A stretch of 64,000 nt of DNA from Spironucleus salmonicida (Eukaryota), in assembly GCF_000497125.1 (NCBI RefSeq), contig NC_090600.1:1013197-1077196 (forward strand), written 5' to 3'. Below, piece by piece: positions 1-57,181 of the stretch (position 1 is the stretch's first letter; each line of letters starts with the position of its first letter). The translations under genes and the position numbers were made by a program. The notes under the pieces are model-generated. The model was not told where the DNA came from and made no database searches. It saw only the letters and a list, made by a program, of their open reading frames with translations.

Positions 1-1931
1 AATTTATCTGGGATGAGGTCAGTAATGGATATAATTATGTGAGCAGTATACTGCAGAAGACGAAATAGTTGCGGAAGCTGACACTAAAATCTAACGGTGG
101 GTATTCAAAATATTTACCAGACATCTCAGAGATTAAGCAACTAGAGATATTAGTGCTCACTCATATCAGTGGTAATATATATTTATCTCCCTGCATACGG
201 ATCGTTATACTCAAGAATTGTAGGATTGACAAATTATATTACAGTTCTAACTACCTTCCGGACCTACTAGAACTTACCATAATAAATATAGCTCATGATT
301 AGACTTTCCTTGGTAATTTACTAGAGAAAGCAAAATAACTGCGAAACCTAACACTAATGGGTAACTCTATATACTACTCACATACACCATGTATGTCATA
401 CTTGAAATAGCTGGAGGTATTAGTGCTTGATAGAATGAGTGGTGATATCTACTTGTCTCCTAACATACGCAGCATTACCATCACGGATTGCGCGATTCAC
501 AGTATTTAATTTAGTGCTGAATCTTTGTCGTAACTGTAGGAGCTTACCTTGTGTAGTGTTAAATATGATAAAACTATCCTAAGTTAGATACTTTAAAATG
601 CGCATAGGTTGCAGAAGTTTAAACTTAAAGATAATGGTATCTTATAGTACGGTCCGCCAGACATCTCCTCGCTAACGTAGTTAAAGATGGTAAAGTTTTC
701 CAACATTTATGGTGATATATACTTGCCCTCCTGCATAGAAAGCTTTACTCTTAACAATTGTAAGATTAAAAAAGTCCAGATCGATGCTGAATCGTTGCCT
801 CATCTGCAGGAATTTACCATAATTGAAGTATCCTATTATTAGAATTTCGTTAATAAAATACTGTAGAAGTCACATGGGTTGCGTAATCTAACAATGAAAA
901 GTAAAGATAATAATTAAAAATATCCACTAGATATGTCAATGTTGCAGCAGCTGGAGATAATCATGCTAGATAGAATACGTGACAATATCAACTTTCCTCC
1001 AAGTATACGAACAGTTACTCTCAAGGATTGCACGATTACTGACTTTCAGTGCAATGCTGAGTCACTATCAGCTCTGTGGGAATTCACCTTGCTGGATGTA
1101 AGCTGTGATTAAAGTTAACTGAATAATTTATTGCAAAAGATGCATAGCTTACGACACCTTACACTGGAACGCGGTGGCCGATCAAGCTCTAATTATAAAT
1201 TTTATCTATTAAAAATATTCTCAGGGAAGTATCTGGAAACATTATGTCTTGAATAAATGATATGCACTATTTACATCTCTTCTACCATACGGAGCATCTT
1301 CCTCACATAGTGCACGATTCACGGAGTGTAGTGTAGTAGTGACTAAATCTTAAACCTACGAAAACTTTCAATGATTAATGTGAATGCTCCAAAAACTGCA
1401 TTGCGTAATGTTCTACAGAAGGCAAACAGGCTTCAGAGCCTAGTAGTGCACGGATACTACAGAAAATCTTATACTATCGCGTAGCTATACCTGCAGCCAT
1501 CAGTGTTGGTGTTGGATCTAGAAAATGTGAATGTCAATCAGCTAGTCTTGACCGCTGCTCCTCGCATAGAAAAACTACGGCTCCATCATATTATCGTTAA
1601 GAAAAATTATATGCCTGAAATATCCAGGCTGATTAAGGCTAAGACAGCCACCCTTCTTGACGTTAGTGACATTAATGTGGATGTTGGGACGCTGGCTGAT
1701 CCCAATCTCGCATAATTTGCTCTTTCTACATTTATCCAGAGAGCTGGGATGGATGTTAAGCTGAATCTTACTGTGGGGTGTCACTACTACCAGCGTGGTA
1801 ATATGATGTACCAGAATGATGATAACACACCGGCGGCGCTGCCCACGAGTCTTACTATCTTCCTGTTACAACTAAAGATCAGATAATTGTCCAGTGAACT
1901 GGTCGTACTGGGTATGGCGCTGGCGGAGTGA
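1..1931 (+). CDS. LRR protein A, left copy (5' part lies outside the window)
   Basis: Continuous frame under table 6 joining track ORFs 69 and 1503. Recurrent motifs LRKLTL..LPDISxLKQLExLxL..GDIYLPPSIRSITLxxCxI..LPxLxELTI. Ends ...LGMALAE* at TGA 1929-1931. Confidence 0.85.
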
Positions 1932-5352: not shown

Positions 5353-7137
5353 TCACTCCAGTAGCGTCTGGGCGAGCATTGTAAGCTCGCTGGCTAGGGG
5401 TATTATCTTCTGTCGGTACACGAATGCCACCAGATTCGCAGGCAACACCACAATCTTATCTACACTATGGGTTTTCTGATACATCGTTTTGTCTCTCTGG
5501 ATGTAGTGTCGCCCCACCGGTATATGCATCCTAGCATATACACCTTCCCGCTGTATGAAGACCCGGAGATTAAATGTATTAATACGGTTATAACGACGCT
5601 AAAAATACCCATATTCCTTTCCAATTGCTTATATATCAATTTTTATTATCGTTCTGGATTTGATTATCCTGACTAGGACTTAAAATTCGTAATAATCGGT
5701 CAAAACTTAATAGATCGACAAAATTTTAACTTTAGGGGTACCAAGTTGGATTAGATGTGATAACCGCATCATTTTGAGTTCCAGCTCAGTAACTGACGGT
5801 TACAAGTAGATCTTCCATATTCTAACAGTATCTTTGAATGTACCACCGAGAATTAGCTTCTGAAGTTTATCTGCCTTCTGCAACACCATGGTAAGAGAAG
5901 GGTCCACAGATTTCATATAGTGCACAGTTAGCTCCAGCAGGTTCGGTAGCGTCTCAGTATCGCACGAGAACTTCGTAATCTTGCATTTATAGATGGACAC
6001 GCTCCGGATGCTGTGAGGTAGGTAGATTTAGCCCTGCATTCCGGTAATTGACAAATATTCCAGTGCTATCAGCTTTGAAATATCTGGTAATATCATATGA
6101 TTCCTATAGTTATTCGTCAGTTATAACTAGCGTATCTTAGGCGATATCTACACTATCATCTACAGTTTCTCGCCCAAGAACGTAACAGAACTAAATGCAT
6201 TGTCCACGGTCAGCTCGAGTAGGTTTGGTAGTAATTCAGCATCGCATTAGAATTTTGTAATCTTGCAGTTAGTGAGAGTGACACTCCGAATACCTTATGG
6301 TATATAAATCTCTCCCTTCCTGTAAGCTAAATTTAGAGTTTCGAGTAACTTTAGTTTGGAAATATCTGGTAATGTAGACACAATACCAAATTTACTCACC
6401 AACACCAGTTTCTGCAGTCCAGTCGCCTTCTGTAGTATCTAACTCAAAGATATATCTACATATGATACACTGTACATGGTGAACTCTTTTAGGTAAGGTA
6501 GTAACTCAACGTCGCAATATAACTTTGTTATACTGGATTTATCGATTTCTATGGTCCTAATGCTGGGAGGTAGGTAGACGCTACCTTTTGTACGAAATAA
6601 TTCCAGTGTCTCCAACTTCTTCAGGCTGGGCATCTCTGGTAGGATCAGACGATAGTATGTATAGTTATCCAAAGTCAGCTTCCGCAACTCTTGTGCGCCC
6701 TTCAGCACGTCAACAAGCGGTCCCCAGTCGCGTATCCATTTGAATCCATCTTTATTCAACGCTTAACCGCACGATACTGCCACCTCTGCGAGGTTCGGGA
6801 GGTCTCGCCCCTGGGGGTTGGTGCACGCAATGGGCGAGTCGACGATGGTGAGCCTGGCGAGGGCGTGGCTGACCTCCATACTGCCGCTCACCCGCGCCAG
6901 GCGCAGCTCTCGCACGTTCTACGCATGCTTCAGTGGCTCCGTGCCATCCATGTTCGCAAGATCCAGTCGGACCACCCCGGCCAGGCTCACCACGGAGTCC
7001 CACCCGCCGTCGAGCGAGAGGTGTGTGTCTGGGGAGGCGGAGGCGCCTGTCTATGGGACTGATATCGCGTCTTCACAGTCGTGGGTACTCTGGGGCGCAT
7101 CCCCGCCGCGGTCTGCCGAGCACGCACTTTATGTCAT
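5353..7137 (-). CDS. LRR protein B (594 aa)
   Basis: aaaATG at 7137 (MTQSACSADRGGDAPQ...). One frame joins track ORFs 6439-6759 and 5800-6000 and ends ...LAQTLLE* with AGTGA. Three ~90-aa LRR modules. Confidence 0.85.
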
Positions 7138-8465
7138 TTTGATAGGGAGTAGCAGAGTGGCGAGTACCCAAATTCCGGTGTCTTGATACGCGCGCCTCTG
7201 GGCAGCAGAAGCCAGCCGCACCCTCCACGAGGCGCCAGCTTGCCTCCGTGATGTTCTTTGCGGCCCTGGCCAGCGCTCGTCCTGCTGATTACCTCACGCC
7301 CATCTAGTATGCCACCATGCGAATAGGAGCCCGCAGTCTACCCCGGCTCCCAGACGCCGCTGGGCTGGTTCTTGAAGGCGCTGCGACCGATGCCACGAGT
7401 CTGAGCGACGTTCGGGCACGGGCGCAGAGACAGGTATGGGCAGCTAGGCAATGCTATATCAATATGGAAGAGCGGGTTTATCTGCAGACTTTGGAGGGGT
7501 TGCGATAGAGAATCCCAACAATATGCTACCCCATCCATGCTGGTCGGGAGAAGGGTACCCCGGCAGCTCTCAAAAGGGGCCCTGGGAGTGAATGCCAACC
7601 GCGATGGCAATATCGGCGTGGAAAAGTATTTGCGCCGGGTCGTTCCTCACCTCAATACCACAACGGGGATATACATGTATCTGCACAGCTTAGTGTAGGC
7701 AGCATGCACACTTTAAAACGGTGGATGCAAATTACTCCTAGCGCTGCCTCGGTAGAGTCGTTGCGGCGGGGTCGGTACTTTGCTAGCGACTCGTCCATTA
7801 CTAACTTCGCAGCCCCGTTCGTCCCCGGGCAGGACAGCCGGGCGACCACTCTGGCCACGTAATGTGCTATGCCATAGCGAACGTCGAGAAGCGGCCCTGG
7901 GTCGGACGTGGGCCACCAGCTAGCAATACCGGCACGCCCTCAGGGCAGGGCACGGCACATTCAGTGGTTCGGACCCGACGCCAACCCAGCTCACAGCGAG
8001 CACGAGATAGTTCCAGGCGGTCCAGAGGAAGTCGTCTTGCGTGATGATTGCTGCGCTGGTACCGCTGGACACGAGCCTACCATGTTGGGGAACCGCTCCA
8101 CGTGGATGCCAGATATTCCGAGCAGGGGCGGTGGCACTAGGCCTTGGTTGCTCCCGGAAGTTGAGGATACACGGTTTAGGCCGTTGGCGTATATTCAGTA
8201 ATATAGTTCTGAAGCGGAGCGAAGATAGCACGATAGGTGTATGCCTGCGTGCTAAGCAGTGGTAGGCACGCGAAAGGCACCCTGGCTAAGGAATCGCAGA
8301 CTGCCTGTGACCCCGCAGGCGATCTCGGCGGCTTCTTTGTGTTGCTTCACTCTCCCTCACCACGCAGCAAATACACGCATTGATGTTAAACTCGTCTCTG
8401 GAATATGGCACTATCCCGCCTGCAGTTCCGGAGGTCCAGTTAGATTAGGATGCCCGGCACCGCGA
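6776..8465. repeat. GC-rich block, copy 1 (LRR constant 5' end plus upstream region)
   Basis: Direct match to 55495-57181 and inverted match to 46465-48151. More diverged than those two are from each other (24-nt insertion, 1-nt indels). Weak similarity to the left arm's flank appears to continue to ~8770. Confidence 0.93.
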
Positions 8466-8495
8466 CCAGTAGCGCGCAGTCCCGGTCCAGGCTGA
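7317..8495 (+). CDS. Putative 392-aa hypothetical protein inside the GC-rich block
   Basis: Track ORFs 7317, 7908 and 8259 are in one frame with no TGA until 8493-8495. The frame is disrupted in the other two copies. Confidence 0.35.
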
Positions 8496-10225
8496 TCCTT
8501 CCACGCTCTTTGTCGTCCAGCTCACACCACACCACTACACCGCACGAAAGCATTCTAGACAGAACTAGTAGGCATCGAGCTCCCGGCAGGTTAGGCTGCA
8601 AAGGGTGCCGCGCTAGCTACTATGGTCGCCACCGGCCATGCACCAGCTGCTGCCCCTCATGCACGAGTAGCAGAAAGACTCTCCATCCGTGTTCGCATAG
8701 TGGATCTCAATGCTGCCCCGCAGGAAGCACATCCCCAAAGTTCAGTGCAGTGTGGTAGTTTTAGCGATGTCTACCTCTAGAGCATTTAAAGATCCCCCAC
8801 TTCACCAATACTAGATTTATCGCATGACCTGATGCAGATGCTCTGGCAATTTTACGGGATGTCTGTCATACTTCCCCTGTGCCGCAGTAGCTAATACATA
8901 TTTACCATCTTGTGCATCAAATATGGCGGTAACGTTATAAAAAATATCGCATGAGCTATGTGAATGACAATTTATTCATTGTGGTATATTTGTGAGAGAT
9001 AGCATAGATTCTATATTACTTACTTTCTAATACGGGCTTAGGCATTGAGTCACTTTTTGTGTTATAGCTCTTCTACCAAATATTTCCAAATCTGAAATTC
9101 GCAATTTTCAAAATAGTATATATCTACTCTGAACAAAACAGCATGAAAGAGGCATACTCAATATTATTTGCACAACTACAGGTATGACACATTGAGGAAA
9201 TTATGCTCTATTGTGATATTTTATATACAAGTAATTAACATCAGACTCATTTATTTTAAATATAACTTTTGAGATTGAGAGCGCGTGTATTATAATGGTA
9301 ACACCATAATGACTGTGAACTCGTATTCTTGGATTAATAACTTATCCGAATGATAATCACTAAGTTTCCAATTTATTTTTATAGAAAGCCTTGCATACAA
9401 ACTTGACTAGAGTTAGCTATTGTAGTATTTTACAAATAGTTTTTATAGTCATTAATACTACTCATTACATAATTATCATAAATGTATATTCCTAATTTCT
9501 ACTAACCGCATATAAGGCTACATTAACTTGACACTATTATACTAATTGGGTCGCTAATATGAAGTAACCATGGTGGAATTGTACATATTCACCCTATTTC
9601 AAGTCTGGTATGAACAGCCAAGCCAACGAATACAAATTATAGAAACTGTACTGTTTTAAGGTTTGGGATAGTATATGCTTACTTCTTACTTTTGCTAATA
9701 TTAGTGTAACTAGTAAAATTTGTAATTATTATATTATGGCGTAAATATATTCACACAATATAAACAATAGACGGAACAAGAATTACTAAAACTAAATAGC
9801 CCTAAGCAGCACTCCTAAGAAAGCATAGAACTTAAGAATAGGTCGATGAGTGGTTTTATTAAATGCCGTAATATCCAACGATTACATTAAATAAATTGAA
9901 TTGAATATACTACTGGAGATTAATTGGCCAGCGCGAACATAGTTCAATTATCATTTACCTAATACACACTTGAATATATATACCTCAAATACTAGTATAA
10001 GGTTAGAAAAAGTTATAATTTCTTTTACTCAGTGTTTGATACTCGCGATAGCATAATGAAAATGCAAATAGTTGTATAATCTACCACAAAATTAGTATGG
10101 TTATTTCTATATAAAATCAAAGCACCATTTACCAATGGTAGCTCAACCTGTGGTTTCCGCAATACATTCTTTGGGAATTATCTTAGTTTAGTCAGAATAT
10201 ATACTATAATATGTTGTCTATAAAA

Positions 10226-11671
10226 ATGTTGCTGTCACTATAAATATCATGCCTTTTGAATTCAAAGGCAACCTACTTAATGCAAACCAATACTATGCAC
10301 TTCCAGTCTGGCCTCAACCCGTACCTCCTCCCAAAGGAGAAAATTCTATGCGACCAGTTCATGGGCGAAACCGTCAACTTAGTCATTTTGATCGGACCGT
10401 ATACCTTCAAAGCCGATGCTATTTTGTACTCATCACTATCTCGGGTGATTTTAGCGTCCGAAGACGCAAACCATGATGATATCGACCTGTATACCGTTGC
10501 AAAGTTCACTCTCGTCCTCACGAAGCAGCTCGTGGACTAGGCAGGATAGATTGACTCTTTCGCGATCAGAAGGTTCAGCAGGACCTCGTGCATCAATTCT
10601 GGAATTTTTATCTGCGACGATACCAAGATGCAGCTGCTTTTCAAGAACGAGACCTGTGCATTCGACGCTAGTCTAACGCAAGTAATTGTGCAATTTTTTA
10701 ACTAAGGAGATGTAATAACCGTAATGAATTAGAGTGCTGGCGTTGTTGACTTCGACCAGATAGCCGTCATGGACGTTAAGGCGACCTGTGCCGACCAGGG
10801 GTGCCGTGATAATTTGTCCCAGCTCAGTTAGCTCGACGCAGTGTTTGGGTACTTCCTTTTCAAGACGGAATAGAAGATGACCAAGAAGGTTCGTGCATAC
10901 AATAACTCCGGTATTGACGCGGAGGTGGAGCTGGAGCTCACATTCTATATGCGGAATTTGGCGCAGGTCGAGTACATGAAGTCGTTCACAGACGTCACGC
11001 AAGTCGCTATCTTCCACGTATAGAAGGAGTATTTCGTCGTGACAAATTTTCCGAACCTGGCCTAGGACATAAGTGGCCTGACCTTCATTATCACCAACTC
11101 CACTGACTTCTTCTCCCTGACCTCACCACCCCAGTCCACCTCCGCATTCATCATTAACTGCGTTGGTACCTGCGATAAAACCCTCGCCGCTATCCATGCT
11201 ACCATGGCTACCGACAGTATTTCTTTCGCCCTAGCACAGCAGACTGGCACATAACAGAAGATCCTCATACCTGCGACCGCGCTCTTCACGTGCATATCTG
11301 CATCTGCCATCAAGTTATACAAGACGCAGATCTGTGCTGTGATTGAGCTGTATGCTGGTTGTGAGTTTGATTTTGGGGTCCAGATCGTGCGAATCGATTT
11401 CGACGGTCTCAGTTTCCAGGGCAGTTTCGCCGTAAACTTCGTCGATGTGGCATACTGCTTCGAGAGCGACTCCCACATCAGCTCTAGCATCCAGGGCGGC
11501 AATAGTGTTGGTGTGGTTCAGATAGGAACCTAGATCTACCCTTTCGGACATGTTTTCGCACTGATTGAGAGCTCGAGCCTCTGGTTAGGCTGGTGCGTCT
11601 TCGCAGTGTTACTAGTCATGACAATGACGGGTGGGCTGCTGTGGGTGCTTCTACGCGAGGTGAAAGCATGA
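10226..11671 (+). CDS. Hypothetical type I membrane protein (481 aa)
   Basis: Starts MLLSLQISCLLNSK (short signal-like; upstream in-frame ATGs exist). Joins track ORFs 10256 and 11339. C-terminal hydrophobic helix WLGWCVFAVLLVMTMTGGLLWVLL then REVKA*. Confidence 0.75.
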
Positions 11672-11897
11672 AAGTCGGGGTGAGCGTATGAAATTCATTC
11701 ACAGCACGCAGATCAGAACCCAACATTTCTCAGCCCTGGTACCAAATACACATTAGCACACTGTAGCGCACTGCGGGTGTTCATTTGCATGCTGTGGGCA
11801 GACCACCTTGCGAGCATTTTGCTTCACATCGAGCTGTATGACTGTGATGAAAATTCGCCCACCCTAGTCTATCCATATATGAACATTCCACTCCAAA

Positions 11898-13343
11898 ATG
11901 CAGATCTCACTCTCGTTCCAGGGCGGAGGTGCCTTTCAGTACCTCCTGCAGACCACGGTCGATGGCGTACTATACAAGACGCCACTTCGCAGGGAGTCAT
12001 CATAATCTTCGGAGCTGCTTCCGCACACACCCACGTTCCAGCTTCTCTGCCAGGCCCCGGGCCGCCCGATCCAGGTGCACGTCTTAGACTCCAGATCGGG
12101 GCAGATCTAGATTCAGGGGGTCTCCCTGCGCTACACCGTCGACTCCACGTAGAAGCTTCGCTACGCTGCTTTCGAGGTTTCCACCCTTCAGCGAGTATTT
12201 CCTGAGCGCGCGGTCGTCCACTTCTCGTAGTACTCAGCGGATGCTGGTAGGCATGTGGTTGTCCCACAAGGTGACTTTTCGGTAACTTGGATTATGTAGA
12301 CGCCCGTAGGACAAATTGAGACGGCCAGACTGCACGTGGGTGGAGGCCCTTTCAGCTATTTCCAGATTGAGCACGGAGTTCCAGAGTTATCAGCCAGTCA
12401 GTAACTATTTTTGATACTACTGCAACAAAAACTTAGCCCCAAACAGACAAAACTTGCTGCGGCGCTCCTGCCGCTATTTCGGATGGATACTCTAGGCACG
12501 GATAAGCAGTTTTAGAAGCTGGCCAAAATCTCGAAGGGACCACCTCTAAGCCTTTCAGCCGTCTTACTACGTGTATTTTGTGGTAGTCCTGGGGAGCTCC
12601 GGACTCCATCAACTTCCCTATTTCTGCTATCCGAGGAGCGGTTAACGGTGGACTAGCTTCGCCCGGTAAAGGTCAATGCATCCTCTTATCGAGTATCCCC
12701 GCAGACTTTCTCGCTGCTCGGCGCGTCCTATGGCGCCACGGTCCCGTAGACCGATTTCTTTGTGCATGCAATCGACTTTTCAGATGAGGCACCAGTGGAC
12801 ATCCAGCTCTTCCGAGATCTCCTCCGCCTAAACGACGGCAAGACCTCGATCGGTATGGGCTTCCAGACTTTGGAAGTGTTTGTGGAAGGATCGTACGCGG
12901 CTCCTGCTGGGTCTCCTTGTATATACCAGCAGGTGGTTCGGAAACGCATCACATTCCAGTAGTAGACCCAGACGCATGCAGAAGTCCTGGTATGTAGTTA
13001 AAATAGGCTTGTGCAAGCGTAGGCCGACTGGACGGAGGGATTTTCGGAGGATTCATCTGAAATACAAACACCAATGATAGAGGCCCCTAAGGCTCAAAAA
13101 CCTGAAGCTACGCCACGGCACGTTCACAACAGCACACCCGGTAAAGCAACTGCACTGAAGTCCTCATTTTAGGACCGGACGACGGCTACCAAGCTGCAGA
13201 CCTTCCCGAAACGAGCCAACTCACAAATGCAGATCCCATAGGTTCTAGCTATGCCGGGACCAGACACAGCTGCTGCCAAAATCGCGAAGCAAATTAACGA
13301 GGCAAAGCGACGCGTGAAGGCGCTGGGCTTTTAGCGGAAGTGA
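11898..13343 (+). CDS. Hypothetical protein (481 aa)
   Basis: aaaATG 11898 (MQISLSFQGGGAFQYLL...), TGA-free frame including track ORF 12762, ends ...KALGFQRK* on AGTGA. Confidence 0.75.
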
Positions 13344-14489
13344 GTGGATTTTCGCGGCATGTGTTAGGTGCGAATTTTACTTAGAGTTTTCTGCAGCAGT
13401 CTAGACTTGGAGGTCAGTGCGCAGAGGGAAATCGCAAAATTTTGCGTATTCGTAAGGAGTAATTTTCTGGTGATATAATGCTAGCAATGCAGCAAATCGC
13501 TTGAAACAGGGCATTTCCAGCGTAATACGAAAGAAAAACAAGGCTCACTTTGCGTTGGGGCAGATTACAGTTCCGTCTTCGTAGGTGATGCACTTATCGG
13601 CGTTGACGTCAGTTTTAGTTTTTTATGGGCAGATTACTGTACCATCCTCGTATTGCATGCATTTTTTGTCAGCGTCCATTTAGTGTGAAAGGAAAGTATA
13701 CAATTTAGATTGACACAGGTTTTAAAAATCCTGCAAATACTAATAATATATACTGATAATTGGAAAAATATTGTAAACTTAATATATAAATAATTAAAAA
13801 TATATAATAATATTATCTCTATCAAAAATTATACATTTCTATTTTTGCTATAAAAGATTGTGGAAATAGCCTAATTTAGTGAAATGGATTTAATAATATA
13901 AAGAGCTATAATGAGGAGAGATATTTAATAATATTATAAAGTGCTGAATATTTCCGATATGTAAGTGAATTCACCTTCATTCATAATATTCTCTAATAGT
14001 GGAGTTATAGACTGTAAATACTTTGATTCCTAATAATAATTTATTATTTTTAACAAATTTAAAGCAACTTGTGTACGAATACAGCTTAAGCTTCCAAGAT
14101 AAATAAGATGAAAAATTAAATAATCATAAGTTCTTATGACAATATTAACTTTGTAATCAGTTAATAAAATTAAATCTGTTTACAATATTTAATAAATCTA
14201 TGAACTATTGTTTTCTATTTAACCTTCAGCAGTATTAGGAAAAACTACAAATATCTTCTAATACTAAATAAATAACCTCCTGATTAAGTATCATTGTAGA
14301 CAAATTTCCTAAATTGTCACTATAAATCCATTATTTTGACATTAATTCATTTATTATATCTTAATACTAGCTAAAATCACTATTTTCCAACCAAGCAAGC
14401 TTAACCCCCTTCGAATCCAACTAATTATAAAAATTTTATATTATATTTAATAAATAATAATACTATTATTCACTTTTTCCATCAGAAAA

Positions 14490-29742: not shown

Positions 29743-30148
29743 TTGTAGCAATAATATGCTACTTTTTATCATGTGTGATAGTTAATAAATATATATTATT
29801 TATGCAATTAAATTATTTAAGAGTAATCATCAAACAAGTTTTAAAGATTACATGCAAAAAATTATGATTTAACACGCTCTTAAGGTCTAGTTAGCAAAAA
29901 ATTAGCACATATACTTAACATTATTAAATAGTATACTTTGTACACAAAATATTACAACAGTTTATAATTATACTACCCATTACAGCTAAAATCATATAAT
30001 ATGTATTATCTAAACCTACAATCGTGTTTAGTACCTAAATTACAAACTATTATGTCATCAATAAACCTTAGCTTTAATCATTTATATAAAATTACCATAT
30101 TATATATTACAATCTCTATATACTTTCCCACTCCAATTTTTTAAAAAT

Positions 30149-46464: not shown

Positions 46465-48151
46465 GATATGCTTGTTGCGGTGCCGGGCATGCTAAACTAA
46501 GTTGATGTAGTAGGTACAGGGTAGACTTTCTGGTCTGGATGGTGCCATATTCCAGAGACGAGTTTAACATCAATGCATGTATCTCCTGCGTGGTGAGGGA
46601 CAGTGAAGTAGCACAAAGAGGCCGCCGAGATCGCCTGCGGGGTCACAGGCAGTCTGCGATTCCTTAGCCAGGGTGCCTTTCGCGTCCCTACCACTGCTTA
46701 GCACGCAGGTATACACTTATCGTGCTATCTTCGCTCCGCTTCAGAACTATATTACTGAATATACGCCAACGGCCTAAACCGTGTATCCTCAACTTCCGGG
46801 AGCAACCAAGGCCTAGTGCCACCACCCGTGCTCGGAATATCTGGCATCCACGTGGAGCGGTTCCCCAACATGGTAGGCTAGTGGCCAGCGGTACCAGCGT
46901 AGCAATCACCACGCAAGGCGACTTCCTCTGGACCGCCTGGAACAATCTCGTACTCGCTGTGAACTGGGCTGGTGCCGGGCCCGAACCACTGAATGTGCCG
47001 TGCCCTGCCCTGAGGGCGTGCCGGTATTGCTAGCTGGTGTCCCACGTCCTACCCAGGGCCGCTTCTCGACGTTCACTATGGCATAGCACGTTACGTGGCC
47101 AGAGTGGTCGCCCGGCTGTCCTGCCCGGGGACGAACGGGGCTGCAAAGTTAGTAACGGACTAGTCGCTAGCAAAGTACCGACCCCGCCGCAACGACTCAC
47201 CGAGGCAGCGCTAGGAGTAATTTGCATCCACCGTTTTAAAGTGTGCATGCTGCCTACACTAAGCTGTGCAGATACATGTATATCCCCGTTGTGGTATTGA
47301 GGTGAGGAACGACCCGGCGCAAATACTTTTCCACGCCGATATTGCCATCGCGGTTGACATTCATTCCCAGGGCCCCTTTTGAGAGCTGCCGGGGTACCAT
47401 TCTCCCGACCAGCACGGATGGGGCAGTATATTTTTGGGATTCTCTATCGCAACCTCTCCAAAGTCTGCAGATAAACCCGCTCTTCCATATCGATATAGCA
47501 TTGCGTACCTGCCCAGACCTGTCTCTGCGCCCGTGCCCGAACGTCGCTCAGACCGTGGCATCGGTCGCAGCGCCTTCAAGAACCCGCCCAGCGGCGTCGG
47601 GGATCCGGGGTAGACTGCGGGCTCCTATTCGCATGGTGGCATACTAGATGGGCGTGAGGTAATCAGCAGGACGAGCGCTGGCCATGGTCGCACAGAACAT
47701 CACGGAGGCAAGCTGGCACCTCGTGGAGGGTGCGGCTGGCTTCTGCTGCCCAGGGACGCGCACCGCAAGACACCGGAATTTTGGTACTCGCCACTCTGCT
47801 ACTCCCTATCAAAATGACATAAAGTGCGTGCTCGGCAGACCGCGGCGGGGATGGTCCCCAGAGTACCCAGGGGGGCTCAGGCACCTCCACCTCCCCAGAT
47901 ACACACCTCTCGCTCGACGGCGGGTGGGACTCCGCGCTGAGCCTGGCCGGGGTGGCCCGACTGGATCTTGCGAACATGGATGGCACGGAGCCACTGAAGC
48001 ATGCGTAGAACGTGAGAGAGCTGCGCCTGGAGCGGGTGAGCGGCAGTATGGAGGTCAGCCGCGCCCTCGCCAGGCTCACCATCGTCGACTCTCCCATTGC
48101 GTGCACCAACCCCCAGGGGCGAGACCTCCCGAACCTCGCAGAGGTGGCAGT
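46465..48151. repeat. Left arm of the 1687-bp inverted repeat (GC-rich block copy 2)
   Basis: Reverse complement of 55495-57181. Begins GATATGCTTGTTGCGG, ends GAGGTGGCAGT. Mirrored identical ORFs in the track (47037/56346, 46722/56613). Confidence 0.96.
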
Positions 48152-50654
48152 GTCCTCCACATTTTAAGGGGGTTATTACTCATGCTTAGGGAGTCACGGC
48201 TGGTTGCATCTGGTCCATGTATTATAAAGGGCGAACCAGCTGCGATGCCTGACGCTAGATTGTGATGGTAGTGACTACGAGTATCCGCCATATATGACCT
48301 AACTGAAGTAACTGGAGATGTTAGTGCTCACTAGAATAAGGGGAAGCGTTTACTTATCCCATAGCATACGGAGTATCACTCTCACTAACTGTAAGATTAC
48401 TAACTTCTAGTGTGATGTTGATTCGCTACCGGACCTGCGAGAGCTTACCATAGTAGATATTAATAAAGAGCAAACTTTCCTGAGTAAGATACTGGAGAGG
48501 GCCCACGGGCTGCGTAATCTGACGCTGTAATATGTTGGTATATATTATAGCAAATATTAAGTTTAGATACTAGATATCTCAATGTTGAAGTTTCTGGAAA
48601 CATTAGTTGTTACTGAAATAAATGTTGATCTATATCTACCATAAACTATACGAAGTATCACACTCAAAGATTGTAATATTACGAACTTCCAGTGTGATGC
48701 TAAATTGCTTCCCGACCTGCAGGAATTTATCTGGGATGAGGTCAGTAATGGATATAATTATGTGAGCAGTATACTGCAGAAGACGAAATAGTTGCGGAAG
48801 CTGACACTAAAATCTAACGGTGGGTATTCAAAATATTTACCAGACATCTCAGAGATTAAGCAACTAGAGATATTAGTGCTCACTCATATCAGTGGTAATA
48901 TATATTTATCTCCCTGCATACGGATCGTTATACTCAAGAATTGTAGGATTGACAAATTATATTACAGTTCTAACTACCTTCCGGACCTACTAGAACTTAC
49001 CATAATAAATATAGCTCATGATTAGACTTTCCTTGGTAATTTACTAGAGAAAGCAAAATAACTGCGAAACCTAACACTAATGGGTAACTCTATATACTAC
49101 TCACATACACCATGTATGTCATACATGAAATAGCTGGAGGTATTAGTGCTTGATAGAATGAGTGGTGATATCTACTTGTCTCCTAACATACGCAGCATTA
49201 CCATCACGGATTGCGCGATTCACAGTATTTAATTTAGTGCTGAATCTTTGTCGTAACTGTAGGAGCTTACCTTGTGTAGTGTTAAATATGATAAAACTAT
49301 CCTAAGTTAGATACTTTAAAATGCGCATAGGTTGCAGAAGTTTAAACTTAAAGATAATGGTATCTTATAGTACGGTCCGCCAGACATCTCCTCGCTAACG
49401 TAGTTAAAGATGGTAAAGTTTTCCAACATTTATGGTGATATATACTTGCCCTCCTGCATAGAAAGCTTTACTCTTAACAATTGTAAGATTAAAAAAGTCC
49501 AGATCGATGCTGAATCGTTGCCTCATCTGCAGGAATTTACCATAATTGAAGTATCCTATTATTAGAATTTCGTTAATAAAATACTGTAGAAGTCACATGG
49601 GTTGCGTAATCTAACAATGAAAAGTAAAGATAATAATTAAAAATATCCACTAGATATGTCAATGTTGCAGCAGCTGGAGATAATCATGCTAGATAGAATA
49701 CGTGACAATATCAACTTTCCTCCAAGTATACGAACAGTTACTCTCAAGGATTGCACGATTACTGACTTTCAGTGCAATGCTGAGTCACTATCAGCTCTGT
49801 GGGAATTCACCTTGCTGGATGTAAGCTGTGATTAAAGTTAACTGAATAATTTATTGCAAAAGATGCATAGCTTACGACACCTTACACTGGAACGCGGTGG
49901 CCGATCAAGCTCTAATTATAAATTTTATCTATTAAAAATATTCTCAGGGAAGTATCTGGAAACATTATGTCTTGAATAAATGATATGCACTATTTACATC
50001 TCTTCTACCATACGGAGCATCTTCCTCACATAGTGCACGATTCACGGAGTGTAGTGTAGTAGTGACTAAATCTTAAACCTACGAAAACTTTCAATGATTA
50101 ATGTGAATGCTCCAAAAACTGCATTGCGTAATGTTCTACAGAAGGCAAACAGGCTTCAGAGCCTAGTAGTGCACGGATACTACAGAAAATCTTATACTAT
50201 CGCGTAGCTATACCTGCAGCCATCAGTGTTGGTGTTGGATCTAGAAAATGTGAATGTCAATCAGCTAGTCTTGACCGCTGCTCCTCGCATAGAAAAACTA
50301 CGGCTCCATCATATTATCGTTAAGAAAAATTATATGCCTGAAATATCCAGGCTGATTAAGGCTAAGACAGCCACCCTTCTTGACGTTAGTGACATTAATG
50401 TGGATGTTGGGACGCTGGCTGATCCCAATCTCGCATAATTTGCTCTTTCTACATTTATCCAGAGAGCTGGGATGGATGTTAAGCTGAATCTTACTGTGGG
50501 GTGTCACTACTACCAGCGTGGTAATATGATGTACCAGAATGATGATAACACACCGGCGGCGCTGCCCACGAGTCTTACTATCTTCCTGTTACAACTAAAG
50601 ATCAGATAATTGTCCAGTGAACTGGTCGTACTGGGTATGGCGCTGGCGGAGTGA
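47814..50654 (+). CDS. LRR protein A, right copy, full length (946 aa)
   Basis: aaaATG 47814 (MTQSACSADRGGDGPQSTQGG...), in frame with track ORFs 48792 and 50226. Seven ~90-aa LRR modules. TGA 50652-50654 within AGTGA. No signal peptide or TM seen. Confidence 0.88.
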
Positions 50655-53600
50655 ATCCCTTTCATATATCTCTATTCTAATATTATCCTTCTAATGACCA
50701 CTTGCAACATATGTTTATTGGCTGCGCTTACGCTAACCCATCCAATCACTCTTCAGCCACCTGCTGTGAAAGTACTTTACACACATTCATCAGAAGGAAT
50801 TTATATAACTCTATCTGTAGCTTCAATATATGATACGTCTGCCGATTTCCACATTGCTCATAAGCTGGATGTGAGTCATTCTCATATTTCAGAGAGTTTA
50901 TTATATATCGTATTATTTACATTCCAATAAGCTTATGCTTGCAATATAAAATCATTTAACAACGAAACTTGTTGTATTAATACAAAATTTGATACTAGAT
51001 GAATATAACCAACTGAGCTCCATGTGAATGTGGCTGCGCATGATTGATAAAATATACTGAATATAACGTCTACATTGTGCAGGTTCACGTGGCATGTCTT
51101 ATTTCTGCCATACTTTCATACTCCAAATTTGTATCATTTCTAAAATTCTGACACCAGTTAATCTGACACTTACAACACGAGTAGTATACATTTTATCAGT
51201 TGATGCTGACTGTAGAAGGCTATTTCCTGATAGTATAGCGGCTACAGGCTCTATACCTTACAATTATACGTCAAAAAATATTCTAAGTACGATTTGTGAT
51301 AGTTAAATTTGTTTCCAAACAAGAGTAACCATTTTAGAAGATATATTAGATCAATTTAAGCCCCTGCTGTCCTTTTGCCATTTCTTTTTCTCAATGTCAG
51401 GCGCTACTGCTTAATAGTTGCTATTTGACATATATATTCTAGCATATTTGTAGCCAGCCTACTATCTTGCACCCCATACACCTCTCCTGACAACATTTTC
51501 ATCCCACACAAGATGCCAGATAGGGGATCCGACTAGATATCCTAATACCTATACCTAAGACATTCAGGTGAATTTCTCCCACTTTTATTAGTGTATATAA
51601 CCAGAATTCGATCGCTTCTGACCAATAAACCAAATATGTTGGCTTCAGCTACAACAGCAATCCCAGGTGAACAGTGAAGCCAGTGCTGGCACTATTCATA
51701 CAAATATTCTTCGATTTCAGCTAACTGCGCAAAAACATCTTATCAGCGTCGTGATCTCCGCTGCGAATGTAATTCCAAAATTTTATATTCTTATATATCA
51801 AAATTATGCCTTTTTGAAACATCGGCTGTTCCCTAGAATTTTTCAAACCAAGTCTTAAAAGCCAGATAGACTTAATAATGTATGTTCAAATTTCTTTAAA
51901 ACAATTTTTCAATTCCATAACAACCGACAAATCCGTTATTTCCTCAATAATCTACCCTTTTCCTTAATATTTTTAATCTAGTTCATCTGTTATATCACCT
52001 CTAAAATAAATTATTACCATAAATCTCACTCCATTCCGAACATGCCCAAACTGTTCTCGCCTGCAAGACCCACTCGCTAAAATACAAGTAGTGGAATTCC
52101 ACGTAACATCACCATAATGAATTTTTAGTCTCAAACTTGAAAACGCCAATTCCACATATTTATTAATTTTAGAGGACAAATTTACTTATTTCATGAGGTT
52201 TACTCTCGAGGGCAAATTATTCGGAATACGCGAATTCAGCTACAAAATTAAAATTTTTTGCACCTAAAGCAGTCGGATTCGCGCGCAAAGATGGCTTTTT
52301 GTTATATTAAATGCGAAATGCACGGTTTCAGGAAGTCGAAATAGGTGCTCCTGACGTCAGCAGGCGCCAGATTTCGAGGGTCAATTGGCATACGCTGACG
52401 AAAATCTGGATTAAATCGTCTGAAAAGTTGTATAAACACGAAAATGAGCTATGTGAGAAAACGATCTGCCACCGCATTTTCGACTTCAAAAGTTTCAAAA
52501 AATGCAGGTAAAGCGAATACAGCGCTACCCCTGCGCAATCATCAAACTGCAGTTTATGGAGAATAAGGCTAGGAGCTCTGCGGGGTCCATCTGGTGCCGT
52601 TCGTTGAAGTTGCGCGGATGCAAAGGAAAATACACGATTCTCATTTCCGTTAGATTCCGCGGTTAGGGGCTGAATTTCAGAGACACGATAAAGGGCTTTC
52701 CGGAAGTAATACTGGGGGAAAATTAATTACTCAAAGGGAATGGGAGCTGCTGGCTGACGATGACGAAACCTGTGATGCATCCAGTTATAGTCCACCGGTG
52801 GCTCTACCAGCAGCTAATCAGCAGTTACTTCGCTATGTATATTTTTTGTTCGGTACCATCTGGCGGTAATCCTCAGAAAGTCGCCCAAGAGCCGTACTGA
52901 CAAAGTTAACCACACAGTCAATTATGGTCCCAAACAACGCGCTCAAGGCAGCGAACGTCCAAGTTTAAGCGAATGCTGGAACCAAAAAGTTCTATTTTAA
53001 TCTCGTATAGTTGCTGTAGGACCGTAAAAGAAAACTTAGACCGTTGATTCAGTCTCAATAGAGATTTAATCCCGAGGGTCTAGTCGTACATCAAACTGGT
53101 GCGGTTCTGCCAGGTGAGTTTCGACGATGAGTCCATGAGTGGTGTAGAGAACAGGAGCAGGGACGCTTAAAATTGAGTTAGATCATGCAGTTCTGCAGAT
53201 AGAAAATGCAGGAACATGAGTACGGATCCGTGAACTAGAAGGACCCCACGTTAGAAAGTCCGCCAGAAGCCGCCATGGCTCTGTCTGACACTAGGGACGT
53301 GGGATCTGGTAGTTCATCACTCACGCGAGTTTACAGGTCTGGTAGCACCTTGGCTTGCCGTGCAGTGGCTTTTACTGTGCTGTTGGGGCGCTGCGGACTC
53401 CCTGCATATATTCCTAAGCGCTAAACGGTGATTGCAAAATGGTATTCTGGAGAGACAAGGGTGCGTGGTTCACGGTCGTAGGGGACAGTTTTGGTTGCTT
53501 CTGGCGGGTTCTCCTTTCGTGAATCTGCACTTTCTCAACGGCTGAGCCTGGAGGCGAAGCTGAGAGGTCCACTGGTCTCGATGGGTGCGGGGAGTAGCGC

Positions 53601-54279
53601 TGCGAGGTCATGGCTGCAATGGTAGATATGTAGTTCCGAGCACTGCCGATGTTTAATGCTACCTGACTCTAGATGAGAAAGGTCGGGTAGGTGAGCAGAA
53701 GTTTGTAATTAGACCTATAATATAATACTCATGATATTCTCACTTAAATGCACGGCGAAGTCCGAATCCAGCTCAAGCTGAGGGGAGGCAGGCGTACCGC
53801 GCACTGAAACTACCCCAACAGTTTATTACTACCAGCGGACTCACAATACAGTCCTAATACAGGCTAGTAGCCATTGTGTGGGATACCCTGTACCCCAAGC
53901 ACGGAGGATCTCGGGCATCCTGCGGGTGCACGGCGTCCAGACCACATTCCTATGGATATCAAGCGCAGCCGTGAGATAAAGCAGTGCAGTACGGGAATCA
54001 CCTGTGGGTGCGACCACGGCGTAGTAAACACCCAAGCTGTTCGCATTAGGAGCGGGAGATTTCGAGACAGCTCACTCCAGTAGCGTCTGGACGAGCATAG
54101 TAAGCTATCTGGCTAGGGGTATTATCTTTTGCCGGTACACGAATGCCACCAGATTCGCAGGCAACACCACAATCTTCTCTACACTATTGGTTTTCTGATA
54201 CATCGTTTTGCCCCTCTGAATATAGTACCGCCCCACTACCATATCTATCCTAGCATCTACACCGTCCCTCTGTATGAAG
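48724..54279 (+). repeat. Segmental duplication, right copy of 1-5560
   Basis: Direct sequence match to the start of the window. Confidence 0.97.
52444..53130 (+). CDS. Second copy of the cassette-centre hypothetical ORF (228 aa)
   Basis: Same frame and same TGA as 3724-4410; about a dozen substitutions seen. Confidence 0.4.
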
Positions 54280-55832
54280 GCCTGGAACACGAAATTTAGA
54301 TTACTGATACATAATACACCATACATATGGTGTATTAACCCTATGTTGAGTATTTACATACTCGATATTGTTCTGGATTTAATTAGCCTGATTAGCACTG
54401 GAACTCTGTAATCGTGAGTGCCAACATTATTGAGCAATAAATTTTTGACTCCAGGGGTCCCAACTAGGATCAGTTCTCCAAAACATATATTTTACAGTTT
54501 CAGGATCGTAACGGATGGCTATAGGTTGATACTCCCAATGTAAACAATACCTTTCATCCACCCATATATAATTAGATTCTGAACTTTAATTGCCTTCTGC
54601 AGCACCATGGTCAGAGAAGGGTCCACGTATCTCATATAGTTTATGGTTAGCTCTAGCAGGTTCGGTAGCGTCTCGGTATCGCACGAGAACTTCGTAATCT
54701 TGCATTTCTCAATGGACACGCTCCGGATACTGGGAGGTAGGTAGATATCACCCTCCATTCCGGCGAGTGTCAGAAATTCCAGTACGGTCAGTCTTGAAAT
54801 ATCTGGCAAAAGCATACGCTGCATGTAGTTATTCTCCAGTTTTAACTTCTGTAACATAGGCGATATCTATACTATCGTCTGCAGTTACTCGCCAAGGCAA
54901 GCAACCGCACTGAATGCATTATACACAGTCAGCTACCGTAGGTCTGGTAGTGACTCAGGTTAGTACTATAGCTTCGTAATCTTACATCGCGTGAGGGTGA
55001 TGCTCCGGATACTTGGTTGTAACGAAATCTCACCCTTCATGTTTTCTAGGTTTAGGGTATCCAAAACCTTTAGTTTGGACATGTCTGGCAGTGGAGTCAC
55101 AATATACAAATGCATCCCTAGCTACAGCTTACCCAACCTAGGTGCCTTGTGCAGTATCTAACTCAGAGATATATCTACATGTGCCATACATTCCATGATG
55201 AGCTACCGCATGTCCGGTAGTGAATCAACATCACATTAGAACTTTGTAATTTTACATCCTATTAGGATGATGCTCTGGATATTTGGAAGTAGATGGAGAC
55301 TACCCTTTGTACAGCATAGTTACAGTGTCTCTAACTTATACAGACTGGGAAGCTCAAACTGAATGAAATTATGGTGATGGGAGTTTACCAATTTCAGCTT
55401 CCGCAGCTCTTGTGCGTTCTATATCAGGTTAATAGGCAGTCCCCAATTGCAGCTCATCTTGAATTGACTCTAATGCAACGTTTAGCTGCACTATACTGCC
55501 ACCTCTGCGAGGTTCGGGAGGTCTCGCCCCTGAGGGTTGGCGCACGCAATGGGCGAGTCGACGATGGTGAGCCTGGTGAGGGCGCGGCTAACCTCCATAC
55601 TGCCGCTCACCCGCTCCAGGCGCAGCTCTCTCACGTTCTACGCATGCTTCAGTGGCTCCGTGCCATCCATGTTCGCAAGATCCAGTCGGGCCACCCCGGC
55701 CAGGCTCAGCGCGGAGTCCCACCCGCCGTCGAGCGAGAGGTGTGTATCTGGGGAGGTGGAGGTGCCTGAGCCCCCCTGGGTACTCTGGGGACCATCCCCG
55801 CCGCGGTCTGCCGAGCACGCACTTTATGTCAT
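54072..55832 (-). CDS. LRR protein C (586 aa), positional counterpart of LRR B
   Basis: ATG 55832 (MTQSACSADRGGDGPQ...), in frame with track ORFs 54519 and 54105, ends ...QTLLE* on AGTGA. Three LRR modules. Confidence 0.85.
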
Positions 55833-57181
55833 TTTGATAGGGAGTAGCAGAGTGGCGAGTACCAAAATTCCGGTGTCTTGCGGTGCGCGTCCCTGGGCAG
55901 CAGAAGCCAGCCGCACCCTCCACGAGGTGCCAGCTTGCCTCCATGATGTTCTTTGCGGCCCTGGCCAGCGCTCGTCCTGCTGATTACCTCCCGCCCATCT
56001 AGTATGCCACCATGCGAATAGGAGCCCGCAGTCTACCCCGGCTCCCAGACGCCGCTGGGCGGGTTCTTGAAGGCGCTGCGACCGATGCCACGGTCTGAGC
56101 GACGTTCGGGCACGGGCGCAGAGACAGGTCTGGGCAGGTACGCAATGCTATATCGATATGGAAGAGCGGGTTTATCTGCAGACTTTGGAGAGGTTGCGAT
56201 AGAGAATCCCAAAAATATACTGCCCCATCCGTGCTGGTCGGGAGAATGGTACCCCGGCAGCTCTCAAAAGGGGCCCTGGGAATGAATGTCAACCGCGATG
56301 GCAATATCGGCGTGGAAAAGTATTTGCGCCGGGTCGTTCCTCACCTCAATACCACAACGGGGATATACATGTATCTGCACAGCTTAGTGTAGGCAGCATG
56401 CACACTTTAAAACGGTGGATGCAAATTACTCCTAGCGCTGCCTCGGTGAGTCGTTGCGGCGGGGTCGGTACTTTGCTAGCGACTAGTCCGTTACTAACTT
56501 TGCAGCCCCGTTCGTCCCCGGGCAGGACAGCCGGGCGACCACTCTGGCCACGTAACGTGCTATGCCATAGTGAACGTCGAGAAGCGGCCCTGGGTAGGAC
56601 GTGGGACACCAGCTAGCAATACCGGCACGCCCTCAGGGCAGGGCACGGCACATTCAGTGGTTCGGGCCCGGCACCAGCCCAGTTCACAGCGAGTACGAGA
56701 TTGTTCCAGGCGGTCCAGAGGAAGTCGCCTTGCGTGGTGATTGCTACGCTGGTACCGCTGGCCACTAGCCTACCATGTTGGGGAACCGCTCCACGTGGAT
56801 GCCAGATATTCCGAGCACGGGTGGTGGCACTAGGCCTTGGTTGCTCCCGGAAGTTGAGGATACACGGTTTAGGCCGTTGGCGTATATTCAGTAATATAGT
56901 TCTGAAGCGGAGCGAAGATAGCACGATAAGTGTATACCTGCGTGCTAAGCAGTGGTAGGGACGCGAAAGGCACCCTGGCTAAGGAATCGCAGACTGCCTG
57001 TGACCCCGCAGGCGATCTCGGCGGCCTCTTTGTGGTACTTGACTGTCCCTCACCACACAGCAAATACATGCATTGATGTTAAACTCGTCTCTGGAATATG
57101 GCACCATCCAGACCAGAAAGTCTACCCTGTACCTACTACATCAACTTAGTTTAGCATGCCCGGCACCGCAACAAGCATATC
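55495..57181. repeat. Right arm of the 1687-bp inverted repeat (GC-rich block copy 3)
   Basis: Starts ACTGCCACCTC, ends CCGCAACAAGCATATC; near-identical reverse complement of 46465-48151. Confidence 0.96.

What the first reader, a model, noticed from the sequence alone, without database searches (positions are those of the whole stretch)
47814..48400. Constant/variable junction at the same nucleotide in three LRR genes
Seen: LRR A, B and C share the GC-rich N-terminus MTQSACSADRGGD...DLPNLAEVAV. DNA identity collapses right after GAGGTGGCAGT in all three (48151, 6776, 55495). Composition switches there from GC-rich to AT-rich with the frame kept. Inference: a fixed boundary suggests a recurrent recombination or conversion endpoint joining a constant module to exchangeable LRR arrays, loosely analogous to cassette-diversified receptors. 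An alternative is a domain boundary where homogenisation simply stops.
Basis: partly seen in the sequence, partly recalled or inferred. Interest (0 to 1): 0.75.

Follow-up and report, generated by a model that had tools for sequence, protein, structure and literature searches.

The report
Gene-conversion edge inside Spironucleus LRR genes
In a fish-parasite protist, a small family of leucine-rich-repeat genes keeps nearly identical, GC-rich front ends, probably because the copies keep overwriting each other, and the copying stops at the same codon where the first highly variable loop begins; this looks like ordinary paralog homogenisation with an unusually fixed edge, not an antibody-like gene-assembly system.

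Summary
Genes A, B and C (genetic code 6, Spironucleus) share a GC-rich 5' block; identity and GC fall at the 11-mer with the frame kept. The junction is the inner end of two inverted repeats (6,660 and 1,687 bp, 99%). The family has nine genes in four deeply diverged body types, and in 18 of 21 pairs identity drops within -15..+5 nt of the same point, also in a second subfamily on other contigs. The block is homogenised at synonymous and non-coding sites, is mosaic, and ends where the most divergent loop starts. Best reading: recurrent, probably GC-biased gene conversion that stalls at a fixed heterology or selection barrier. The cassette-receptor reading is not supported: eight of nine genes are complete, no donor cassettes or tyrosine recombinase were found, identity runs through the junction between like bodies, 3' edges are ragged, and four sequencing runs list only the three assembled branches. 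GC bias itself was not shown. The scan noted GC-rich repeat arms cutting genes on other DNA of this genome before; the same-codon edge across four body types is what this locus adds.

The parts
47814..50654 (+). LRR gene A, 946 aa in code 6: constant block, seven 90-100-aa repeat units, C-terminal domain
   Evidence: (PF24758 E 8e-25); untemplated poly(A) loose end at 50664 in run X5
47814..48151 (+). constant GC-rich 5' coding block of A (113 codons; about 40 disordered residues, then beta strands that cap the solenoid)
48141..48151 (+). junction 11-mer of A; last bases of identity with B and C, at the end of the strand LPNLAEVAV
48152..48185 (+). first hypervariable loop, an insertion of about 10 aa that the later repeat units lack; most divergent 10-codon block of those examined
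   Evidence: low pLDDT at residues 118-128 of the model of C
46465..48151 (+). left arm of the 1,687-bp inverted repeat (98.99% to 55495-57181)
55495..57181 (-). right arm of the 1,687-bp inverted repeat; holds the 5' block of C; junction 11-mer at 55495-55505
54072..55832 (-). LRR gene C, 586 aa
5353..7137 (-). LRR gene B, 594 aa; junction 11-mer at 6776-6786
6773..13432 (-). right arm of the 6,660-bp inverted repeat (99.05%); the left arm lies just left of the window (G000:C5:1005995-1012627) and ends at the junction of A'
1..1931 (+). body of A', a second copy of gene A (start at G000:C5:1012287, outside the window); one base differs from A in 2,838
48724..57109 (+). direct copy of window 1-8416 (93.4% overall; about 100% in the A body, 92-100% between the genes, 58-80% in the B/C bodies)
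47033..47368 (+). decayed remnant (67% DNA identity) of the F420-ligase-like gene that stands intact upstream of the C3/C8 paralogs; shared by the arms, with next to no RNA-like cover

Best explanation
These are ordinary, complete paralogs of a Spironucleus LRR family whose 5' ends lie in repeat arms that are repeatedly overwritten by non-allelic gene conversion. Shown: the upstream flank and first 113-121 codons are homogenised at the DNA level, in mosaic tracts, while the bodies are old (synonymous sites near saturation). Shown: homogenisation between unlike bodies ends at the close of a beta strand, directly before the most divergent loop. Inferred: tracts that start in the shared flank cannot be resolved past that heterology, or are purged by selection because they would erase a paralog's own binding surface, so many events pile up against one inherited edge. 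Inferred: long conversion with a repair bias to G/C raised or preserved GC in the block, while bodies that escaped conversion drifted towards the genome's AT-rich mutation pressure. Inferred: the proteins are cytosolic LRR solenoids (no hydrophobic leader or membrane span) that bind partners with variable repeats between a shared N-cap and a C-terminal domain; repeat number changes by unequal exchange among units.
For: dS in the constant block 0.03-0.07 within subfamilies against 0.86 (B-C), 2.0-2.7 (D5-D6/D7) or saturated (A-B, A-C) just after it. Not a plain rate difference: A is far closer to C than to D7 in the block (dS 0.03 vs 0.44) but closer to D7 than to C in unit 1 (1.13 vs saturated). 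dN/dS of the block is about 1 for A-B and B-C and 0.53-0.61 between subfamilies, so protein constraint does not explain it. The arms include non-coding, decayed sequence. Mosaic arms: 42 of 114 variable columns group inverted-repeat partners (A,C | A',B), all upstream of -696; downstream A' follows A and C. The first 10 codons after the junction are the least conserved of 18 blocks (0.32 nt, 0.12 aa identity). All 5 A-C differences in the last 249 nt lie within 96 nt of the edge, and D6/D8 differ from D5 at -24, -6, -5, as expected if conversion weakens near a passive barrier. Homogenisation also works from the 3' side (B-C last 45 codons dS 0.10; D5-D6 last 190 codons dS 0.04-0.08) with high GC3 there in the D genes (0.87-0.91). 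9 of 12 repeat edges examined have more GC inside than on both outer sides, 6 of the 9 that are not LRR junctions. Surface positions of the 7 internal D units show dN/dS 1.39 against 0.55 in the framework (21 non-independent pairs). Literature: same signature in fugu protocadherins (PMC1852091, passages), opsin peak of divergence (PMC3924837, passages), duplicated regions of S. salmonicida 44.7% GC against 30.7% (PMC9509377, passages).
Against: The direction of bias was not shown: no outgroup or polymorphism data, and the few private changes are uninformative. GC does not track present identity everywhere: the A body is 99.96% identical to A' yet has GC3 0.41, and unit 1 of D6-D9 is 94-99% identical with GC3 about 0.65; this needs the added assumption that these became homogenised late. 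The 5' edge is far more fixed than the 3' edges and than the fugu boundaries, which differ among subclusters; a passive barrier explains this only if the loop diverged first in every lineage, which is not shown. Trees did not reject one clade of A, B, C in unit 1 (p-AU 0.34 DNA, 0.31 protein) and supported it for C-terminal DNA (100/99, long branches, uneven composition), so topological conflict between subfamilies is not shown. dN/dS above 1 was not seen for B vs C (0.54 at exposed and loop sites) or among A's units (0.75). 3 of 12 edges lack the GC step, and edges picked from BLAST ends are sharp partly by construction.
Confidence: 0.75

Rival explanations
1. One-off duplications: each inverted repeat arose once by a homology-primed template switch that ended in the conserved strand before the loop and grafted a GC-rich upstream block onto an older LRR body; little conversion since.
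For: Both inner arm ends coincide with the junction and the outer ends meet unrelated sequence abruptly; the upstream block descends from a very GC-rich cluster on C3/C8 (GC3 0.91-0.99), so its GC could be inherited.
Against: Arms are mosaic with tracts of different age; four body types share the edge in register, which would need at least three separate grafts ending at one codon; 3' parts are homogenised too.
Confidence: 0.12
2. Fixed-site exchange: an enzyme or a fragile DNA or chromatin feature sets crossovers at the GAGGT motif, so LRR bodies are swapped behind a constant promoter and cap in the germ line or in growing cells.
For: 18 of 21 pairs drop within -15..+5 nt, across two subfamilies about 75% alike; A'/B and A/C face each other across 7.3-kb spacers bounded by 99% arms, an invertible layout; a 20-mer about 60-80 nt upstream of the junction is identical in 9 of 9 genes.
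Against: Only GAGGT is common at the edge; the run of synonymous identity between subfamilies is not significant (permutation p 0.20); 0 tyrosine recombinase matches in the genome with 14 of 14 controls positive; the 6 reverse transcriptase matches lie about 370 kb or more from the nearest paralog or on another contig; swapping bodies between near-identical constant blocks that each have their own upstream region gains little; only three branches listed in 4 of 4 runs, DNA depth about 2:1:1 as assembled.
Confidence: 0.07
3. Local hypermutation: a mutator acts downstream of a fixed point in the gene, making the bodies diverge fast and lose GC, with no need for conversion of the 5' block.
For: Fixed start point, GC loss downstream, very AT-rich Tyr/Asp/Asn loops in the D units (GC3 0.39), long branch of D5 in unit 1.
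Against: A and A' differ at 1 of 2,838 bases and unit 1 of D6-D9 is 94-99% identical, so the region is not generally mutating fast; the A-body contig shows 0 or 1 other letter in the runs laid; within- and between-subfamily rate ratios disagree (about 10-90-fold against 2.5-5.5-fold).
Confidence: 0.04
4. Assembly artefact: collapsed or chimeric repeats produced the shared block.
For: Near-identical repeats are hard to assemble; D9 has a one-base frameshift in the block that may be an error; no listed contig spans the whole stretch.
Against: The three branches at 48151 stand in contigs of 4 of 4 runs from 2 studies, with DNA depth near 2:1:1, and arm variants of the other copies are seen in the reads.
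Confidence: 0.02

Closest known systems
[quoted passage not shown] 2004 seen only as a reference entry)
   Same: Paralogs more than 99% identical in one part and 68-80% in the other (the two table rows shown), a discrete boundary inside the coding sequence, higher GC3 in the homogenised part (54-69% vs 38-45%).
   Different: There the 3' part is homogenised and the boundary differs among subclusters (EC4 or EC5); here it is the 5' part plus flank, the copies are inverted or on other contigs, and the edge is the same codon in two subfamilies.
Peak of divergence kept by selection under conversion, red/green opsins (review PMC3924837, passages read)
   Same: B vs C and D5 vs D6 are islands of old divergence between flanks homogenised from both sides; the review also names accumulated substitutions and indels as what stops conversion.
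   Different: Islands here span 170-430 codons, not one exon; selected sites are not known.
Primate X palindromes with GC-biased arm-to-arm conversion (PMC8981503, passages read; lead came from earlier scan notes)
   Same: Inverted arms of 99% identity, more GC than flanks, spacer of intermediate GC.
   Different: Arms here are 1.7-6.7 kb, the GC step is 15-25 points rather than about 4, and the arm ends inside a working gene; bias direction was measured there, not here.
GC-rich segments and duplicated regions of S. salmonicida (PMC1805757 and PMC9509377, passages read)
   Same: Sharp GC shifts along the genome, called hard to explain in 2007; duplicated regions reported at 44.7% GC vs 30.7%.
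   Different: The passages read do not describe this LRR family, an intragenic edge, or GC-biased conversion as the cause.
Lamprey variable lymphocyte receptors (PMC3308329, passages read)
   Same: LRR solenoid with shared ends and variable middle; conversion-like copying guided by short homology.
   Different: VLR genes are incomplete in the germ line and filled from hundreds of flanking cassettes in single cells; here the genes are complete, nine in all, with no cassettes found and no secretion signal or anchor.

Membership tests
Regional concerted evolution by non-allelic gene conversion | Near identity at synonymous and non-coding sites in part of old paralogs | tested here: met
   dS 0.03-0.07 vs 0.86 to saturated; arms 99% incl. 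decayed upstream DNA
Regional concerted evolution by non-allelic gene conversion | Homologous, in-register but diverged sequence beyond the boundary | tested here: met
   unit 1 aligns in frame across all body types
Regional concerted evolution by non-allelic gene conversion | Mosaic tracts that show more than one event | tested here: met
   A' switches type between -696 and -660; D5 has D6-type ends around a unique middle
GC-biased gene conversion | Higher GC3 in homogenised than in non-homogenised parts | tested here: met
   block 0.77-0.84 vs bodies 0.41-0.67; D C-termini 0.87-0.91; exceptions: A/A' body, D6-D9 unit 1
GC-biased gene conversion | Excess of AT-to-GC fixations in polarised changes | not testable with these tools
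   no relatives held for this genome, no close homolog outside it; private changes too few
Island of divergence held by selection | Diversifying selection on the non-converted part | tested here: inconclusive
   dN/dS 1.39 at exposed and loop sites of internal D units, 0.54 for B vs C, 0.75 among A units; pairs not independent, no significance test
VLR-type cassette assembly | Incomplete germ-line gene with a non-coding intervening stretch | tested here: not met
   8 of 9 genes are complete open frames; the ninth has a one-base frameshift in the block
VLR-type cassette assembly | Library of separate LRR donor cassettes | tested here: not met
   A body: 18 of 21 matches in the nine genes, 3 weak matches to the C-terminal domain elsewhere; D5 middle: 26 of 26 in the genes; C body DNA: 4 of 4. 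Counts are lower bounds; the B-body DNA search did not complete
VLR-type cassette assembly | New combinations in individual cells | tested here: inconclusive
   only three branches at 48151 in 4 of 4 runs, but contigs drop rare variants
VLR-type cassette assembly | AID/APOBEC-type deaminase | not tested
   no search run
Shufflon-type site-specific inversion (features recalled, not from a call) | Conserved crossover site at each variable segment | tested here: not met
   only GAGGT shared at the edge; upstream identity run p 0.20
Shufflon-type site-specific inversion (features recalled, not from a call) | Dedicated site-specific recombinase | tested here: not met
   PF00589: 0 matches in the genome, 14 of 14 controls positive; none among 28 proteins scanned against Pfam; serine recombinases not searched genome-wide
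Shufflon-type site-specific inversion (features recalled, not from a call) | One expressed constant part, silent variable parts | tested here: not met
   every body has its own block; A, B and C body sequence stands in contigs of both RNA-like runs
F-box/LRR proteins (automatic UniRef name of paralogs) | F-box domain | tested here: not met
   no F-box family at E 0.1 for A, B, C; residues 1-120 of the model hold no helix
BspA-like or VSP-like surface proteins | Signal peptide or membrane span; LRR_5 repeats | tested here: not met
   highest 19-residue hydropathy 1.21-1.47 in 9 of 9 sequences, polar N-termini (a crude scan); no LRR_5 hit

The most novel reading that the evidence does not exclude
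The parasite has a programmed or strongly channelled exchange point inside this LRR family: crossovers or conversion ends are set at one codon, so that whole binding bodies are moved behind a shared promoter and cap, by inversion of the 7.3-kb spacers or ectopic exchange, at a rate too low to show in contigs and by an enzyme not of the tyrosine recombinase family. It would be a first domain-shuffling system in diplomonads.
Probability: 0.07. Interest if true: 0.8.

Novelty: new member of a known kind. Interest (0 to 1): 0.33.

Why it matters
The mechanism is known. The locus is a clean natural test of two questions. First, what makes the sharp GC-rich segments of S. salmonicida, which PMC1805757 could not explain by mutation or selection: here GC3 falls by 15-35 points inside single transcribed genes exactly where homogenisation ends, so expression-level codon selection cannot be the cause. 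Second, what fixes the edge of an island of divergence: four old body types share one edge, which allows heterology and selection to be told apart with more isolates. It also flags an undescribed, transcribed LRR family with changing repeat number (2 to 7 units) as a candidate set of variable binding proteins in a fish pathogen. My searches found no paper on the family or on GC-biased conversion in Spironucleus (open-licence library only).

Tried and rejected
Intron at GAG|GT: not needed, all frames are open under code 6. Mobile element with terminal inverted repeats: arms differ in length between the two units, hold ordinary or decayed host genes, and 28 proteins scanned gave no transposase or integrase family. 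Purifying selection on the N-terminal protein alone: rejected by dS and by dN/dS near 1. A cis signal in the 36-nt stretch shared by both subfamilies: p 0.20. Tree conflict between subfamilies: not shown (A' and D9 left out as a near-copy and a frameshifted gene; the same two were left out). A possible tenth paralog from a loose end in run X4: 0 matches in the genome; it is a blend of two known unit starts (agreement 0.8), dropped. No holder was on record as RNA; X5 and X7 are guessed RNA, and contigs cannot give a start site or level. The first unit split mis-cut some units and the script failed; redone by hand-set starts. Homologs: 6 hits, all this family (only 8000 candidates scored, near lengths only); the profile search gave 3 strong hits of this family, then generic LRR matches of at most 97.5 bits, none of the 150 listed having its best stretch start before profile position 111; the Atlas look-up of residues 28-140 gave unnamed or weak LRR_4 clusters, a lead only; the fold search gave generic LRR solenoids, TM 0.24-0.44. 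The B-body DNA search did not complete, so donors for B were covered only by the protein searches. Supplements of the papers were not opened; annotation tables there may name these genes.
Full report
Setting. The window reads with TAA/TAG as glutamine and lies on contig C5 of G000. Paralogs on contigs of the same genome are named hypothetical proteins of Spironucleus salmonicida by their source, so the organism is taken to be this diplomonad fish parasite.

The observation. GAGGTGGCAGT occurs three times, at the places given. A (47814-50654 +, 946 aa), B (7137-5353 -, 594 aa) and C (55832-54072 -, 586 aa) are open across it. The identity change-point is at 0 for A-B and A-C and +2 for B-C; identity falls from 0.96-0.97 to 0.51, 0.46 and 0.64. 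GC over 150 nt falls from 0.66-0.68 to 0.43-0.49.

What the shared block is. It is longer than the N-terminus. A and C face each other as the inner ends of a 1,687-bp inverted repeat (98.99%); B faces a fourth gene, A', across a 6,660-bp inverted repeat (99.05%); both spacers are 7.3 kb, and the two units are a 10.6-kb direct duplication. A' differs from A at 1 of 2,838 bases. The upstream part of the arms holds decayed remnants of genes that stand intact and very GC-rich before the paralogs on C3 and C8, among them an F420-ligase-like gene. So within the window the three junctions are not independent: B and C fill the same slot, and both are bounded by their heterology with the A body.

The family. 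The block finds nine genes in the genome, four on C5 and five on C3 and C8 at 73-75% identity; a 20-mer of the block gives the same nine. Eight are complete, D9 has a one-base frameshift in the block. Each has the block, 2 to 7 repeat units of 90-100 aa and a C-terminal domain. There are four old body types: A, B/C, D5 and D6-D9. In 18 of 21 pairs among seven genes (A' and D9 left out) identity drops within -15..+5 nt of the same point; the other 3 pairs (D6, D7, D8) show no drop. The D5 break against D6-D8, from 0.96-0.98 to 0.38-0.40, is a second, separate case on other contigs.

Homogenisation, not constraint. dS is 0.03-0.07 in the block within subfamilies and 0.86 to saturated in the next 90 codons between unlike bodies; dN/dS in the block is about 1 for A-B and B-C. 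A is nearer to C than to D7 in the block and nearer to D7 than to C in unit 1, which a slower rate cannot produce, although trees did not reject one clade of A, B, C there (p-AU 0.34 and 0.31). The arms are mosaic: upstream of -696, 42 columns pair each gene with its inverted-repeat partner; downstream of -660 A' follows A and C, and B alone keeps 24 extra bases that the D genes also have in length. Homogenisation also comes from the 3' side, over the last 45 codons of B/C and about 190 codons of D5/D6, with gradual edges at unrelated places. Between like bodies it runs through the junction (A/A', D6-D9). The junction is therefore where copying stops between unlike bodies, not a place where it must stop.

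Why there. The edge lies at the end of the strand LPNLxEVxx (strand 110-115 in the model of C, mean pLDDT 73), just before a loop of about 10 extra residues that later units lack and that is poorly modelled (118-128). These first 10 codons are the least conserved of 18 blocks examined (0.32 nt, 0.12 aa). Differences between near-identical blocks gather close to the edge in A-C and D5-D6/D8, as expected where conversion weakens, and not expected at a precise crossover site; A-B and D5-D7 do not show this. Whether heterology alone or selection holds the edge is open: exposed and loop sites of internal D units give dN/dS 1.39 against 0.55, but B-C and A's units stay below 1.

GC. GC3 is 0.77-0.84 in the block, 0.41-0.67 in the bodies and 0.87-0.91 in the homogenised C-termini of the D genes. 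Nine of 12 repeat edges in the fetched regions have more GC inside than on both outer sides. This fits biased conversion, as in fugu protocadherins (PMC1852091) and primate palindromes (PMC8981503), and the species-wide report that duplicated regions hold 44.7% GC against 30.7% (PMC9509377). It is not proof: the direction of bias could not be measured, and the A/A' body and D6-D9 unit 1 are near-identical without being GC-rich.

Reads. Contigs of four runs were laid on 46300-51300. Each run lists two joints leaving 48151 besides the A path; their landing places fit C and B, and DNA depths are near 2:1:1 (23.9/13.9/11.3 and 393/213/244, one sample), as assembled. In two guessed-RNA runs the bins upstream of 47803 have depth 0-9 and those from 47803 to 50641 have 370-2784 (paralogs summed); one run ends in 11 untemplated A at 50664, ten bases past the stop. 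The block is thus very probably part of the transcript and all three C5 bodies are present in these runs; contigs cannot fix the start or show rare variants.

The cassette idea. VLR genes are incomplete and filled from hundreds of cassettes (PMC3308329). Here the genes are complete, and searches with the A body, the D5 middle and the C body found only family genes plus 3 weak C-terminal matches. No tyrosine recombinase was found, reverse transcriptases lie far away, and only GAGGT is common to all edges. The proteins have no hydrophobic leader or span and no F-box, and resemble only generic LRR solenoids. Homologous recombination between the arms could invert the spacers, but as each body already has its own near-identical block this would change little.

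Verdict. A real, sharp and recurrent edge; best explained (0.75) as regional concerted evolution, probably GC-biased, stalled at the first hypervariable loop of an LRR family. Earlier notes of this scan describe GC-rich repeat arms that cut through genes elsewhere in this genome; they agree with a reading I had already recorded, are unchecked, and gave me one paper. None covered this family. New member of a known kind; interest 0.33. A fixed-site exchange system is not excluded (0.07) and would deserve 0.8.

Noticed in passing
G000:C3 about 1083400-1106300 and C8 95000-140000, 183000-197000 (L013-L015, L017, L020, L023): A multi-copy cluster with GC3 0.91-0.99: F420-0:gamma-glutamyl-ligase-like gene (PF01996, 6 copies in the fetched stretches), a phosphoribosyltransferase (PF00156), a Cys-rich 271-aa gene and the LRR genes, in nested inverted and direct repeats of 3.6-15 kb; the C5 arms hold a decayed version.
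   Followed up: partly
G000:C3:1097735 - (L009, L014): Paralog D9 has a one-base frameshift in the constant block; pseudogene or assembly error. A D9-type body sequence stands in a contig of run X7.
   Followed up: no
L025:4149-5972 + and its inverted copy near G000:C3:1054755; also C1:871107: Distant relatives share only the C-terminal domain and lack the constant block; protein P0013 (361 aa, source not shown) shares it too.
   Followed up: partly
D6, D7, D8, D9 internal repeat units: Units are patchworks of each other (72-91% identity) with AT-rich Tyr/Asp-rich loops; repeat number differs among close paralogs.
   Followed up: partly
G000:C8:199382-203999 (L024) and 176406-179656 (L022): A GC-rich (66-69%) array of short tandem units running off the fetched stretch, and a second array of about 350-bp units.
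   Followed up: no
window 36187-37080 + and 37551-40034 -: Two cysteine-rich proteins with a C-terminal hydrophobic span, facing each other; they look like the cysteine-rich membrane proteins of diplomonads (label recalled; no Pfam hit).
   Followed up: no
window 29393-34978 +, 27307-28167 -, 19312-19860 -: IFT140-like gene with GC 42-57% in AT-rich surroundings (copy number not checked), a papain-family protease and a centrin-like EF-hand protein.
   Followed up: no
window about 43200-45550: A 2.4-kb stretch 67% alike to G000:C3:1080610-1083109, left of the C3 cluster; more of the old synteny between the two loci.
   Followed up: no
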